From the human T2T-CHM13v2.0 reference genome, Homo sapiens: a stretch of DNA of 64,000 nucleotides. The position numbers and the translations under genes were made by a program. Under the pieces are notes generated by a model that made no database searches, had not been told where the DNA came from, and worked only from the letters and a program-made list of their open reading frames with translations. The stretch lies in NCBI RefSeq assembly GCF_009914755.1, contig NC_060947.1; one strand, given 5' to 3'. Shown one piece after another: positions 45,663 to 56,364 of the stretch. Each line of letters starts with the position of its first letter. Position 1 is the first letter of the stretch.

Positions 45663-45815
45663 CTCTGCCAAATGTTGTAGCCGAGTTAGCAGCGGGGTCC
45701 TCTTGTCAGATCCCAGACGAGTGATGTAGTTTGATCTTTTGCTAAATACATATAGGAGATTGAGGACTGCCAGCACCACTTGCATATCAGAGGAAGCCAA
45801 TAAAGTTGTCAAATG
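45663..45815 (-). CDS. HUWE1: HUWE1 coding exon 4, [10 protein letters not shown]...LQHLAE
   Basis: 153 nt, tag/gtgagt, phase 0-0. Confidence 0.96.
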
Positions 45816-45952
45816 CTAAAGGGACAAAAAAGGGCAAAGCTCAAGGTATCAGGCACAACTGGCCTTGAAAACAAAACAAAATGTACTTGTCAACATTTAC
45901 AAAGCTATCAAGAAGTTTAGTCACAACAATACAAAAAATATATAAGTATTTG

Positions 45953-46120
45953 TACTCGGGAGGCTGAGGCAGGAGAATGGTGTGAACCCGGGAGGCGGAG
46001 CTTGCAGTGAGCCGAGATCACGCCACTGCACTCCAGCCTGGGCAACAGAGGGAGACTCTGTCTCAAAAAAAGAAAAAAAAAAAAAAAAAATATATATATA
46101 TATATATATATATATATATG
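45953..46120 (+). mobile_element. Alu right arm (AluY-like) with poly-A and (TA)n tail
   Basis: tactcgggaggctgaggcaggagaatggtgtgaacccgggaggcggagc. Confidence 0.92.
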
Positions 46121-46499
46121 TATTTGATAATCTACAACATGCAACCTTATCCCCAAGGAGCTTAAAATCTGGCAGTTAGCTATAAAGTGCAATAAAAGTA
46201 AAAAACGTAAATAGTGGTTCAAAATTGCGCAGGTTTTCCCACAGGAAGGAAAAGAGACAAATACACATGTGGGACTCAAGAAGAACATTAAGTCTCTAAC
46301 TGGACTAAAAGTATTGTGAAAGAAAGATATTTTATGTTCTCTTCTGTATCCTTTATGACAAACATAAAATTGAAATTAATTAAAACAGGGTCCTTCATAT
46401 AGAAGCTAAAGATATCGATAACAGCTCGTGGCAATTATATAACATATAAGTGTTACAGTACAGTATATGCTCATAAGGAACCTGAGTGACTACTCTGGA

Positions 46500-46800
46500 T
46501 TTTGTTGTTGTTGCTGTTTGGAGACGGGGTCTCTCTGTTGCCCAGGCTGGAGTGCAAAGGCATGATCATAGCTCCCTGCAGCCTTGACCTCCTGGGTTCA
46601 AGCAATCCTCTCACCGAAGTCTCCCGAGTAGCTAGGACTACAGGCACGCACCACCACGCCCCGCTAATTTTTGTATTTTTTGTAGCGATGGGGTCTCACT
46701 ATGTTGCCCAGACTGGTCTTGAACCCCTGGGCTCAAGTGATCTTCCCGCCTCAACCTCCCAAAGTGTCAGGATTACAGACATGAGCCACTGCACCTGGCC
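46500..46800 (-). mobile_element. Alu (AluJ-like)
   Basis: Full reverse dimer. Confidence 0.92.
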
Positions 46801-47710
46801 TTACTTTGGCTTTTAAATACAATTAAAATTCACCAATACATTGAAGCAGTTGGTCAGAATTAAAATCAGTATGTAATATAGCTAGAAATGAACCAAGGCA
46901 TTTCCAGTTGCCAATTATACCGAAGGTCATGGACTTCCATGGGCAGCATATCTATTTCATCTTCAACAGACTGCCTATTTACCTCCCACTTAAAGCTCTG
47001 TATGTTAGGCCTTTAGTTCAGTTATCCCACTTCTTTTCCTAAGCCATTTTCTTTTAAGTTGTTTGTTCTGATTCTGTTTCTCTACTGAAGACGTAGGAAA
47101 ACACACCTAAAATTAACAGGGCACCTAACTAATGATGATAAAAAGTCTAAAGTTGGGCTTCTATAAAAAGAAAATAATTTCTTCTTACAGTGATTTTTAA
47201 CCAATTAAAAAGCTCACTGATTGCTGCACCTACCTTACTCTTCAAGGACACAAAGGATGCTATGAATATATATTTTGGGATGGGTGTGGCAGAGTACAGA
47301 GAGACTTTAAAGCAGCACACTAACACTTAGAGGAGTAGTAAGTACATTAATGTGATGAGAAAATCAAACTATTTCTAGGAATTTAAAAGTAATGTGGGGC
47401 TGCTCTAACAACCTAGGGCAAAAATCAATTCATGCAAATTTCCTTAAATACTTTAATACATATATAACATTTCTCATTCATTTCTTGAATCTTGAAAAGG
47501 CAAAGCAAAGGTGATAGTACAGAATCTTCCCATCAACCCTATGAAGGATAGTATCTATATCCAAGAAACATTCTACTATTATCTTTGACAATGAAAAACC
47601 CAGAGCTCCACAATGAAAAGGAAAGAAGCAATAGAAATAGCAATTTCCTTATTTCTGGATGTACACAATTCTAGTCAAGAACAGGGTACACAGGCTTTAA
47701 CCTCCCCTAC

Positions 47711-52515: not shown

Positions 52516-53296
52516 TGTCTTTTTAATTTTGGATACAGTATTTAACATTTCCATTATGGTTTTTTTCCTTTGTTTTAATGCTTGGAAAGACCATGCCCAC
52601 TTAAGACAAAGTAAACATTCACCTACATGTTCTACTTCTCCTATAGCTTATTTCTTTTAAAAACATTTGACTTTTGGTTTATCTAAAATTTATCGCAATA
52701 TAATAGTCCCACATGCTCTACAAGATAATCATTCTAGCATGGTTTCCTAATACTGTCCCTTCTTTCCAATTTATAATCCCTCTATTACCATATATCTAGT
52801 TCTTATATACACTAGGATCACTTTTCTAGGTCTTCTATTCTCGTAGCAGTAGATTCTTACATTGGTTCCACTTTAAATTTTTAAATTATAGTTTCTTAAG
52901 CAAGTTTTCTTTTTGTCCTTCAGTAAAAGACATTCAAGTACACAGTTGTCAAAACTTCTAGATGCCAAAACACATCAAAAACAAAATCAAAAGCAAATGA
53001 AGATATTTCCAACAGATATGAAAATGAGTACGTTCAATATATATGGCATTCAGTAAGAGAAACACTGATATTCCAATGTCAGATACAAAATGAATGGCAC
53101 AAGAAGATAACTGATATAGAACAGTGAAATACTTTCTTCCCCACTTATGAAATTAACAAAAATTTAAAAGACAATCTGTAATACTGACAAGGGTATATGA
53201 AGAAAGTGCTGCTCATACTCATTAGTACAATGCTAAATGAAAAGGGCAGGATAATTGTGTGTGCACATGTAATAATTTTTTAAAAGACTGGAAGAA

Positions 53297-53513
53297 GCCT
53301 GGGCAACAAGGCAAGATCCTGTCTCTACACAAAATAAAAAATTAGCCAGGCATGGTGGCATGCACCTATGGTCCCAGCTACTCAGGAAGCTGAGGTGGGA
53401 GCATCGCTTGAGCTGGGAGGTCAAGGCTGCAGTGAGCTGTGATCGTGCCACTGCACTCCAGCCTGTGTGACAGAGCAAAACCCTGTCTCAAAACAAACAA
53501 ACAAACAAAAAAA
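53297..53513 (+). mobile_element. 5'-truncated Alu (AluJ-like) with TSD actggaagaa
   Basis: Right arm plus (CAAA)n tail. Confidence 0.92.
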
Positions 53514-54406
53514 ACTGGAAGAAATGCAGCAAAATGTTATTGTTATCTTTTGGTGATACTTGCCAGGTACTTTTACATTTTTTGAAAACCAAGTGGCTTG
53601 TATTTACGATATGAACTAACTTATGTGCCAGATACTATGCTAAGCAATTGCCTCACATCAAGAAGGAAAAAATTTTCAGCCCCATTTTGCAGCTGTGGAA
53701 ACCAGGCAAGTTAATAACCTCTCAGCCACAAAAGTCTGGTAAGATTCAAACCTAGGTCTAATTTCAAAGCTTGTGCTCTCTGAACTAAGCACAAGGGGTC
53801 AACAGGACTATCACAATGCAATACCACTTCCTCAACCTTAGAAAGCAGTTCAAGCTAGCTGGTGGAATATTACTAGATTAAAGCTGGGATTTCTACTGTC
53901 GACAAAGGGTTAATTGATATGACCACCCAATACACAAGTTAAGCTGAATTGTGTGATTAAGAATCAGTAATAAAGACAAGCTAAAACACTGGCCTTAACA
54001 AAAAAACTAGTAAGAAAGATGTTACCACTTTCATTTTCTAAAAAACAAAATTGCAAGATCCCAGAAGTACATTAAAAATCTGAACCCATATCTGCTCTTT
54101 CCATTATACCACACATCCTTTCTGCATAGGAAGGAATTGCACAGCAGCCTGAGAGCTGACTTCAGGCACACACAGCTACGAAGAACTAACTGATCGGTGT
54201 TCACTTTCCACTGGTCTCTTGGCTATCCATTTTTTTGATCCAGGGAAGTTCAAAAGAAAATCTTACTGTTTCTAGACAAGTTGTTGTTTTACTGCCTTTT
54301 GTATATATGGGTGATGAGATTTGAAGAGCATGGATGAACTGTTCACAAATATTTTTTTATTTTTTAATGAAGAAAAAATAAGCAAAGTAAACTTTTGGAT
54401 ACTTAC

Positions 54407-54451
54407 AGCCTCAGTAGGTGTCTTCTTCAGTTTAGTCCTGTCTACTTTCAT
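54407..54451 (-). CDS. HUWE1: HUWE1 coding exon 1, MKVDRTKLKKTPTEA (whole exon 54407-54475 includes 24 nt 5'UTR)
   Basis: ATG at 54451-54449; acceptor ttttttcag above 54475; donor gtaagt. Confidence 0.96.
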
Positions 54452-56364
54452 GATTTCAATTTTCAGCTTTACGATCTGAAAAAAGAAAATCCCAAAAGAA
54501 GTGAGAACTTAAAGCTACAATCTTGAGCTCTACAAGCTTGGACACAGACAATACAGAATGAAGAGCAATGCAAAATGCTTAAAGTAAAAACACTGGAGTT
54601 ATGATGCTATGCCAACTCAGAGGCACAGCTATCAGGTAGAGAGAGGTAAAGAATCTCTCCAGATCAAACTGGCCCACATCCCTATGTTGCACAAGACTGA
54701 AACCAAATCAGGTCAAAATGAAAATTTTTTCTCTTTTACAAGCATCTCAAACTCTTAATTGAAAATAAGAGTGTACAATGTTTGCAACACATCTCAGGAT
54801 GGAAAAATTCACCATAGCCCTGCAGTTTCCTGATAACTTCCATTTCTAGGAATTAATCCAAAGAAAGTCGTAAAGATGTACACAAATATTTAACCACAAG
54901 AATCCATACTGCATGACCATGTATAATAGTAAAAGACTGAAAAAGACCTACTGTTCCATCACAAGGCTAAAAAAAAGATCAAATGTCCAAAATACGACTG
55001 GTTTAAAATGGAATGTCACACAACTGTTAAAAATATTGCAAACTATGTAATACACAAAGATGTTCATGATGAAATAAAAAGATTACAACACAGAACATAC
55101 GGTATAAAACTTATGTCTAAAGAAAACAGCTTAGAGGTGCTAGGCATCAGAATATTAATTCATTGTTAACCAAAAGGATTAAGTATGACTGTTTTACCTA
55201 TGCACCTTTTACTGTTCCTACCAATAAAAATGTATTAGTTGTATCATAAGAGCAAAGGCAAAACAACACTTTTTTCAACTAGAAAATGAAGTATAAGGAT
55301 CACAACAGAAATATTCTGAGCACAGAAAACAATCATTTTATTAAGCCATGTAATTTGGAAGGCTCAAAAGCAGACAACAGCCTGATCAGATCCACTGTAT
55401 AATCCCTAGATCTTTGATGGCAGACAAGTCCTCCAAAGCACAAGAAGAAATAAGTTTCTCCTGTTAGCAACTAAGACACATGCACAGAGGTAGAAGTGGG
55501 TTGCAGGCTCTTTACACACAAAAGATTCTGCTATTAACAATGTATTTAACTCAGTGGCAGTCACTAGAAATCAATGTTCCTCCCCCGAGAAGGCTGCCAT
55601 AATATAAAGCTGACCAATTACAGTATAAATTTTAGGCAGCTTTTTGCCTAGATTTAGTCCAATATACTCAGTACTATGGAAATAGCGTGTATTTGCCTGT
55701 ACGACCTGTATCCATTCAATCAGCAGGCATTCAAGGAAGAGTTTGTGAAAAATTCAGAATACGTTCTAAAACATTTCTGCAGAGACCATTCCTTAAGAAG
55801 AAAAAATGTTTTCTATGGTTGATATTTAGGGTGTGTAATTCCAGATTACTTTTTAAAAAGTTATCTCAGTATCAATACAAAATGAACAAAATGCCTGATG
55901 CCAACAACCTCAAAATATCTCAAATGAAGCCAACAGGATTCTGGCAACAATCCTGTCCATGTGGTGGAAACTATAAGCTGAGCTATTTGTACGCTTACTC
56001 TCAAGGCTTTTTTCCTCCCCTTTTCTCATAAACGTCTTACGCAAGTGGCTGTCACACTATTGTCGCTTCAGTCATTTGCAGGGAGGCTATTAAACTGCCC
56101 CTGCTGCAAGACGTAGCAGCCAGCCTCAATACAACTCAAATAACTGATGCTTTCCCTCTAAGATTAGGAACAAGGCAAAGATGTCTGTTATCATGACTTT
56201 TATTCAACATACTGCTGAAAGTTCTAGCCAATATAATACAGTAAGAAAAAGAAATAACAGGCACACAGATAAGAAAAGAAAAAATAAAAATGGTCCCTAT
56301 TTGCAGATGTCAAAGGATCATCCACATAGAAAACCCAAGAAATCTATTTTAAAAGCCTCCCAGA

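What the first reader, a model, noticed from the sequence alone, without database searches (positions are those of the whole stretch)
45663..54475. Predicted 528-nt AUG circRNA with an endless, stop-free ORF (rolling-circle translation candidate)
Seen: the exons of 69+99+207+153 nt sum to 528 = 176 codons. The last donor is phase 0, and the 24-nt 5'UTR of the AUG exon reads ATC GTA AAG CTG AAA ATT GAA ATC (IVKLKIEI), in frame with no stop. Back-splicing 45663>54475 would therefore give an infinite ORF repeating HUWE1 aa 1-168 plus an 8-aa linker. The block is bracketed by long introns with oppositely oriented Alus: minus at 43704-44478, plus at 56365-58416. The first eight coding exons all end in phase 0, so any circle from the AUG exon to those donors is also endless. 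Known: inverted Alus promote back-splicing, and I recall circHUWE1 species being reported. Inference: translation could give concatemers of the N-terminal fragment, and circularisation would also remove the start codon from the linear RNA, a possible dosage sink for a dosage-sensitive gene.
Basis: partly seen in the sequence, partly recalled or inferred. Interest (0 to 1): 0.7.

Follow-up and report, generated by a model that had tools for sequence, protein, structure and literature searches.

The report
Known HUWE1 start-codon circRNA, stop-free frame
The four HUWE1 exons do form a circular RNA that is already catalogued, and its endless reading frame is real, but it is an ordinary, chance-level property that cattle do not share and that nothing shows to be translated.

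Summary
The four minus-strand exons (69+99+207+153 nt) sum to 528 nt, all have AG/GT borders, and the start-codon frame has no stop around the circle.

The circle is not a prediction. hg19 chrX:53672262-53681075 maps exactly to window 45663-54475. Stagsted et al. 2019 list it as an "AUG circRNA", with 2273 ENCODE and 320 HEK293 junction reads. A PCOS study names it hsa_circ_0001922.

Endless frames are a described class: 8% of AUG circRNAs and 14% of full-length human circRNAs. Fan et al. 2022 already list a rolling-circle ORF for another HUWE1 circle that uses the same acceptor.

Here the frame rests on a 24-nt leader that is stop-free by chance in 43-68% of cases.

Cattle circHUWE1 uses the same donor but stops four codons after the junction, and its leader is 22 nt (read by eye).

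The inverted Alus exist but are distal (3188 nt summed) and have better partners inside the upstream intron. Long flanking introns fit better.

Translation and a dosage-sink role remain unsupported. Verdict: already known, low interest.

The parts
54407..54475 (-). HUWE1 start-codon exon (69 nt: 24-nt leader plus 45 nt coding). Its 5' end at 54475 is the back-splice acceptor.
   Evidence: AG acceptor and GT donor. hg19 53681075 is the end coordinate of the listed circles.
54452..54475 (-). 24-nt 5' leader. It is in frame with the ATG and stop-free (IVKLKIEI). This is the only non-coding stretch in the circle.
   Evidence: Stop-free by chance in 43-68% of cases. The cattle counterpart is 22 nt (read by eye).
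48555..48653 (-). Second coding exon, 99 nt, phase 0 to 0.
47711..47917 (-). Third coding exon, 207 nt, encoding HUWE1 residues 49-117. Its donor at 47711 gives a minor 375-nt circle.
   Evidence: The minor circle is hg19 53674310-53681075, with 18 and 9 reads.
45663..45815 (-). Fourth coding exon, 153 nt. Its 3' end at 45663 is the back-splice donor. The same donor is used by cattle circHUWE1.
   Evidence: The cattle primers end on the orthologous exon end.
34651..45662 (-). Downstream flanking intron, 11,012 nt, the longest of the 25 introns in the window.
54476..64000 (-). Upstream flanking intron. At least 9,525 nt lie in the window and it runs off the window end.
   Evidence: No exon of any listed transcript lies here (hub annotation).
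43703..44464 (.). Two Alu-like repeats in the downstream intron, in the opposite orientation to those at 56.4-58.4 kb.
   Evidence: The name 'Alu' comes from my recognising the consensus, not from a tool.
56383..58412 (.). Cluster of Alu-like repeats in the upstream intron. They are complementary to 43.7-44.5 kb at 72-81% identity, but match 61389-61700 in the same intron better (85-92%).

Best explanation
This is hsa_circ_0001922, an already catalogued exonic 'AUG circRNA' of HUWE1. It is made by back-splicing the donor of the fourth coding exon (window 45663) to the acceptor of the start-codon exon (window 54475).

Biogenesis is most likely driven by the very long flanking introns, with the distal inverted Alus helping at most. 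This step is inferred.

The stop-free 528-nt frame is real. It follows from two things: the first HUWE1 coding exons all lie between phase-0 introns, and the 24-nt leader happens to be a multiple of 3 without a stop. It is not a conserved or selected feature.

The circle most likely acts as a non-coding or barely translated by-product of HUWE1 splicing. This too is inferred.
For: The circle exists:
- The exact junction (hg19 BED chrX:53672262-53681075, minus strand, equal to window coordinate + 53626599 for the start and + 53626600 for the end) is listed as 'AUG circRNA', with 2273 junction reads in ENCODE and 320 in HEK293 (Stagsted et al. 2019, Tables S2 and S4).
- It is listed as hsa_circ_0001922 in granulosa cells (PMC6592967, Table 3).

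The frame is endless.

The class is common: infinite ORFs occur in 8% of AUG circRNAs, and host-frame rolling-circle ORFs in 14% of full-length human circRNAs. A stop-free leader is expected by chance in 43-68% of cases.

The frame is not conserved:
- Cattle circHUWE1 is 663 nt, five exons, RNase R-resistant, with a Sanger-verified junction.
- It ends on the orthologous donor.
- It reads GTC CTC CGG TAG after the junction, so its ORF is finite.
- Its start-exon leader aligns as 22 nt (read by eye).

Introns rather than Alus:
- The downstream intron is 11,012 nt, the longest of 25 in the window. The upstream intron is at least 9,525 nt.
- The nearest inverted Alu pair across the circle is 3188 nt summed distance at 72-74% identity.
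- A pair inside the upstream intron is 92% identical over 290 nt.
- Cattle have no Alus yet use the same donor.
- Stagsted et al. report that AUG circRNAs are generally Alu-independent, have long flanking introns, and show no evidence of translation (passages).
Against: Fan et al. 2022 (Supplementary Data 4) assign 10 spectra of one 8-residue peptide to a rolling-circle ORF of a different HUWE1 circle, chrX:53573664-53681075. That circle uses the same acceptor, and the peptide reads into the same 24-nt leader. If this is genuine, the leader can be translated across a back-splice.

They also report that rolling-circle ORFs are over-represented among MS-supported circles.

Stagsted et al. excluded infinite ORFs from their Ribo-seq and ORF-conservation analyses, so their negative result does not cover this circle directly.

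The circle carries twice the DRACH-motif density of the other 22 exons in the window (3.79 vs 1.81 per 100 nt, Poisson p = 0.002). It also carries one hexamer (AAGAAG) that Fan et al. name as IRES-like. Both are only leads.

I could not confirm that the circle holds exactly the four exons, because I saw no long-read data.
Confidence: 0.8

Rival explanations
1. Rolling-circle translation. Ribosomes start at the HUWE1 AUG on the circle without a cap and keep going round. They make concatemers of HUWE1 residues 1-168 plus the 8-residue linker, which either act on HUWE1 partners or are degraded as misfolded repeats.
For: - The frame is endless.
- The AUG has A at -3.
- Synthetic and some endogenous endless circles are translated this way (Fan et al., passages; Abe et al. 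2015 and reviews on rtEGFR, search listing only).
- Fan et al. assign 10 spectra to a HUWE1 circle with the same acceptor and leader.
Against: - The junction peptide of this far more abundant 528-nt circle has 0 hits in the same MS table.
- The one supporting peptide is 8 residues long and is assigned to a circle that would span most of the gene.
- AUG circRNAs as a class showed no translation in Stagsted et al..
- The endless frame is absent from cattle circHUWE1.
- The unit ends about 70 of 358 positions into the DUF908 helical-repeat domain, so it is a truncated fold.
- No paper on translation of any HUWE1 circle was found.
Confidence: 0.08
2. Dosage sink (mRNA trap). Each back-splice removes the start-codon exon from that pre-mRNA, so circle formation measurably lowers productive HUWE1 mRNA and tunes the dosage of a dosage-sensitive gene.
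For: - The circle contains the only annotated start codon (hub annotation).
- Competition between back-splicing and linear splicing is an established principle (my recall: Ashwal-Fluss 2014, seen here only in a reference list).
- The donor is conserved in cattle.
Against: - I could obtain no circle-to-linear ratio for human.
- In cattle the circle is reported as less abundant than linear HUWE1.
- Circles are stable, so their steady-state level overstates the flux through back-splicing (general knowledge).
- No annotated transcript feature in the window points to a skipped product (hub annotation).
Confidence: 0.08
3. Alu-driven circle. Pairing between the inverted Alus at 43.7-44.5 kb and 56.4-58.4 kb is what brings the splice sites together.
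For: Inverted pairs across the circle exist, up to 80.5% identity over 298 nt. Inverted Alus are an established promoter of back-splicing.
Against: - The summed distance of the nearest pair is 3188 nt, above the 2300-nt cut-off Stagsted et al. used for Alu-dependent circles.
- The upstream Alus have a 92% partner in their own intron, and the downstream ones have 78-81% partners in theirs.
- The same donor circularises in cattle, which lack Alus.
Confidence: 0.2

Closest known systems
AUG circRNAs (Stagsted et al. 2019, PMC6487579)
   Same: It contains the host gene's annotated start codon, has long flanking introns and distal inverted Alus, and is listed by name in their Tables S2 and S4.
   Different: It belongs to the 8% minority with an infinite ORF, which that paper left out of its Ribo-seq and ORF-conservation analyses.
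Rolling-circle ORFs (rcORF; Fan et al. 2022, PMC9242994), with the HUWE1 circle chrX:53573664-53681075 in their Supplementary Data 4
   Same: Same acceptor, same ATG, and the same 24-nt leader read in frame. Both are classed as stop-free circles.
   Different: The donor is different and much closer. No MS-supported peptide is listed for the 528-nt circle.
Bovine circHUWE1 (Yue et al. 2020, PMC7015828)
   Same: Same back-splice donor. It contains the start-codon exon and the same three coding exons, and is cytoplasmic and RNase R-resistant. It probably corresponds to the human isoform chrX:53672262-53707139.
   Different: The acceptor is one 5'UTR exon further upstream, giving 663 nt. There is an in-frame TAG four codons after the junction, so the ORF is finite. 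It was studied as a miR-29b sponge.
Human circHUWE1 studied by name (hsa_circ_0140388, hsa_circ_0004396, and the 304-nt circle of the bioRxiv screen)
   Same: Same host gene. They are also bracketed by long introns, of 7145 and 5624 nt.
   Different: They come from exons at window 14895-17807 and contain no start codon. Their lengths of 589, 212 and 304 nt are not multiples of 3 (my arithmetic).

Membership tests
AUG circRNA (Stagsted et al. 2019) | A back-splice junction is observed in RNA-seq. | tested here: met
   By look-up, not experiment. 2273 (ENCODE) and 320 (HEK293) junction reads at hg19 chrX:53672262-53681075. Also listed in granulosa cells as hsa_circ_0001922.
AUG circRNA (Stagsted et al. 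2019) | The circle contains the annotated start codon of the host gene. | tested here: met
   The ATG at 54449-54451 lies within exon 54407-54475 (hub annotation). The source table labels it 'AUG circRNA'.
Rolling-circle ORF (rcORF; Fan et al. 2022) | No stop codon in the ORF when the circle sequence is concatenated. | tested here: met
   0 stops in the ATG frame over three rounds of the 528-nt circle. This assumes the circle holds exactly the four annotated exons.
Alu-dependent circRNA (Stagsted cut-off) | The nearest inverted Alu pair lies within 2300 nt summed distance of the splice sites. | tested here: not met
   The nearest inverted HSP across the circle is at 3188 nt summed distance.
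Long-flanking-intron circRNA (Stagsted cut-off) | Flanking introns longer than 6500 nt. | tested here: met
   11,012 nt downstream and at least 9,525 nt upstream.
Translated circRNA | Junction-spanning ribosome footprints, a junction peptide, or polysome association. | not testable with these tools
   Literature only. The junction peptide has 0 hits in Fan et al. Supplementary Data 4. No paper was found. Databases such as riboCIRC, TransCirc and circAtlas were not available.
Selected (conserved) endless ORF | The leader stays a multiple of 3 and stop-free in other mammals. | tested here: not met
   One species only. The cattle leader aligns as 22 nt, and the cattle circle has an in-frame TAG four codons after the junction (read by eye from 400 of 663 nt shown).

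The most novel reading that the evidence does not exclude
The endless frame is a lineage-specific gain, with a 24-nt leader in human against 22 nt in cattle. It lets hsa_circ_0001922 be translated round and round into HUWE1 N-terminal concatemers. The spectra that Fan et al. assigned to a sister circle with the same acceptor would then be a first sign that this leader is read across a back-splice.
Probability: 0.06. Interest if true: 0.5.

Novelty: already known. Interest (0 to 1): 0.14.

Why it matters
HUWE1 is a dosage-sensitive X-linked gene. A translated start-codon circle, or a circle that drains start codons from the mRNA pool, would therefore be of medical interest.

But the circle is already catalogued, and endless frames in start-codon circles are a described and fairly common class. 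The one cross-species check available argues against selection for the frame. What remains open is an ordinary experimental question: is this particular junction ever translated?

Tried and rejected
- Rfam scan of the whole window at gathering thresholds: 0 matches, so no structured RNA gene in the introns explains the locus.
- Search for non-Alu complementarity nearer the back-splice sites: none at E <= 0.001. All 40 inverted HSPs among the 79 found between the two flanking introns fall in the repeat clusters.
- DRACH enrichment (20 motifs vs 10.7 +/- 2.9 in shuffles; 3.79 vs 1.81 per 100 nt) and an AAGAAG hexamer were considered as translation cues. I kept them only as leads, because both motifs are degenerate.
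- Other start-exon circles: the donors of coding exons 1, 2, 5, 6, 7 and 8 were sought in Stagsted's supplements. 0 of 6 were found, but file 2 is cut in the stored copy.
- Mouse conservation could not be checked. No mouse circRNA table was reachable in the stored supplements, and no mammalian genome is held by the tools.
- Folding the 176-residue unit or a concatemer was left out, because it needs a sequence joined across exons. Pfam on single exons gave only sub-threshold DUF908 matches.
- Literature searches for translation of any HUWE1 circle found nothing relevant. One search was badly framed and returned mostly unrelated papers.
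Full report
**1. The observation**

On the minus strand the four exons are:
- 54407-54475 (69 nt)
- 48555-48653 (99 nt)
- 47711-47917 (207 nt)
- 45663-45815 (153 nt)

All 26 of 26 annotated exons in the window have AG and GT borders. 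The 24 nt ahead of the ATG translate in frame to IVKLKIEI without a stop, while the other two frames of these 24 nt each contain stops. Three rounds of the joined circle have 0 stops in the ATG frame and 36 in each of the other frames. The first eight coding exons are all multiples of 3, so 8 of 8 circles from the start-codon exon to those donors are endless. Of all 26 donors in the window, 16 give an endless circle.

**2. Is it more than chance?**

Once the length is a multiple of 3, the only non-coding part is the 24-nt leader. It is stop-free in 43% of shuffles of its own bases, and in 68% for uniform base composition. The run of eight multiple-of-3 exons is less common: 6 of 18 later exons are multiples of 3, and a run of eight has a chance between 0.00015 and 0.004 depending on the per-exon rate assumed. 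That is a feature of HUWE1's intron phases and needs no circle to explain it.

**3. The circle is real and already catalogued**

Published coordinates let me fix the offset between the window and hg19.
- hsa_circ_0004396 (chrX:53641494-53641706, 212 nt) is exon 14895-15106.
- hsa_circ_0140388 (53641494-53644407, 589 nt) is exons 14895-17807.

The predicted circle should therefore be hg19 BED 53672262-53681075. Exactly this entry, on the minus strand and labelled 'AUG circRNA', stands in Stagsted et al. 2019 (PMC6487579). Table S2 (ENCODE) gives 2273 junction reads, and Table S4 (HEK293) gives 320 (supplements searched, and part 1 of 97 of file 4 read).

Two further isoforms are listed there:
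- 53674310-53681075, the 375-nt circle ending at window 47711, with 18 and 9 reads.
- 53672262-53707139, which has the same donor and an acceptor in an upstream 5'UTR exon outside the window, with 200 and 80 reads.

A granulosa-cell study lists chrX:53672263|53681075 as hsa_circ_0001922 (PMC6592967, Table 3). Only one other paper holds that identifier (search listing).

The circHUWE1 species studied by name in human all come from window 14895-17807 and contain no start codon. This includes the 304-nt 'core essential' circle of a bioRxiv screen (hg38 53614533-53615835).

**4. The class is known**

- Stagsted et al. state that infinite ORFs are predicted for 8% of AUG circRNAs in human and mouse. 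They also state that ORF lengths after the junction match chance, and that they found no evidence of translation. They left infinite ORFs out of their Ribo-seq and conservation analyses (passages).
- Fan et al. 2022 (PMC9242994) define rolling-circle ORFs, find them in the host frame in 14% of full-length human circRNAs, and report ladders from three tagged reporters (passages).
- Their Supplementary Data 4 already holds a HUWE1 entry marked 'rc', 'ATG', for circle chrX:53573664-53681075. It has the same acceptor and a donor far downstream outside the window. Ten spectra of one 8-residue peptide are assigned to it, and the last three residues of that peptide are the first three codons of the 24-nt leader.
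- The junction peptide of the 528-nt circle has 0 hits in that table.
- It is odd that a circle spanning most of the gene should be detected while the far more abundant small circle is not. I treat those spectra as weak.
- Rolling-circle translation of synthetic circles, and 'rolling-translated EGFR', are further precedents (search listing only).

**5. Conservation**

One species could be read.

Bovine circHUWE1 (PMC7015828) has five exons and 663 nt. It is RNase R-resistant, Sanger-verified and cytoplasmic (passages). Its divergent and cloning primers end on the orthologue of the human exon end at 45663. So the donor is shared, in an animal without Alus.

Table S3 shows the first 400 of the 663 nt. 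Reading by eye:
- The main ATG is at nt 160. This agrees with 663 - 504 = 159 nt before it.
- The frame after the junction reads GTC CTC CGG TAG, so the ORF stops at the fourth codon.
- The start-exon leader aligns as 22 nt against the human 24 nt, so a four-exon cattle circle would also leave the frame.

This analysis was done by eye and not by script, and the exon boundary in cattle is inferred from the alignment with human. On this evidence the endless frame is not conserved, while the back-splice is.

**6. Biogenesis**

Alu-like repeats lie at 43.7-44.0 and 44.2-44.5 kb in one orientation, and at 56.4-56.9, 57.6-57.9 and 58.1-58.4 kb in the other. The family name comes from my recognising the consensus.

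- Of the 79 HSPs between the two flanking introns, 40 are inverted.
- The nearest inverted HSP lies at a summed distance of 3188 nt with 72-74% identity.
- The best is 80.5% over 298 nt, at 3629 nt.
- This is beyond the 2300-nt cut-off Stagsted et al. used for Alu-dependent circles.
- The upstream Alus have a better partner within their own intron: 58123-58412 with 61389-61677, at 92% over 290 nt. The downstream ones have 78-81% partners at 36.8-40.7 kb.

By contrast, the downstream intron (11,012 nt) is the longest of the 25 introns in the window, and the upstream one is at least 9,525 nt. The other well-known HUWE1 circles are flanked by the second and fourth longest introns, 7145 and 5624 nt. 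Long flanking introns, with Alus helping at most, is the better-supported route. This remains an inference.

**7. What the product would be**

Exon 47711-47917 encodes HUWE1 residues 49-117 of solved full-length structures. The third and fourth exons match only positions 3-71 of the 358-position DUF908 model (below threshold because they are fragments). A 176-residue repeat unit would therefore be a truncated helical-repeat piece. I did not fold it, because that needs a joined sequence.

The start context is GAAATCATGA. DRACH motifs are twice as dense as in the other 22 exons, and one AAGAAG hexamer is present. These are leads, not evidence.

**8. Verdict**

But the circle is hsa_circ_0001922, a listed AUG circRNA. 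Endless frames in such circles are a described class. The frame is near chance expectation and is absent in cattle. Nothing I could reach shows translation or a dosage effect. No paper in the searched library discusses translation of a HUWE1 circle.

Three gaps remain that may bear on this:
- Stagsted's Table S2 is cut in the stored copy, and its mouse data were not seen.
- bioRxiv supplements are closed.
- Databases such as circAtlas, riboCIRC and TransCirc were not available.

Noticed in passing
window 14895-17807 (-): The human circHUWE1 species studied by name (hsa_circ_0004396 at 212 nt, the 304-nt circle of the bioRxiv screen, and hsa_circ_0140388 at 589 nt) all share the donor at 14895. 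They are flanked by the second and fourth longest introns in the window (7145 and 5624 nt). None has a length that is a multiple of 3.
   Followed up: partly
window 31766-54475 (-): The first eight coding exons of HUWE1 are all multiples of 3 (phase 0 to 0), against 6 of 18 for the following exons. Any skipping or circularisation among them keeps the frame.
   Followed up: partly
window 45663-54475 (-), exons only: DRACH motifs are about twice as dense in the four circle exons (3.79 per 100 nt) as in the other 22 exons of the window (1.81 per 100 nt; Poisson p = 0.002).
   Followed up: partly
window 58123-58412 and 61389-61677: An inverted Alu-like pair, 92% identical over 290 nt, lies within the intron upstream of the start-codon exon. 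It is the strongest inverted pair seen near the circle and competes with pairing across the circle.
   Followed up: partly
outside the window (hg19 chrX:53573664 donor; hg19 53707139 acceptor): Published tables list a very large HUWE1 circle from the same acceptor, with MS spectra assigned to it, and a longer isoform that starts in an upstream 5'UTR exon. The longer isoform is probably the counterpart of bovine circHUWE1. Neither could be read from the window.
   Followed up: no
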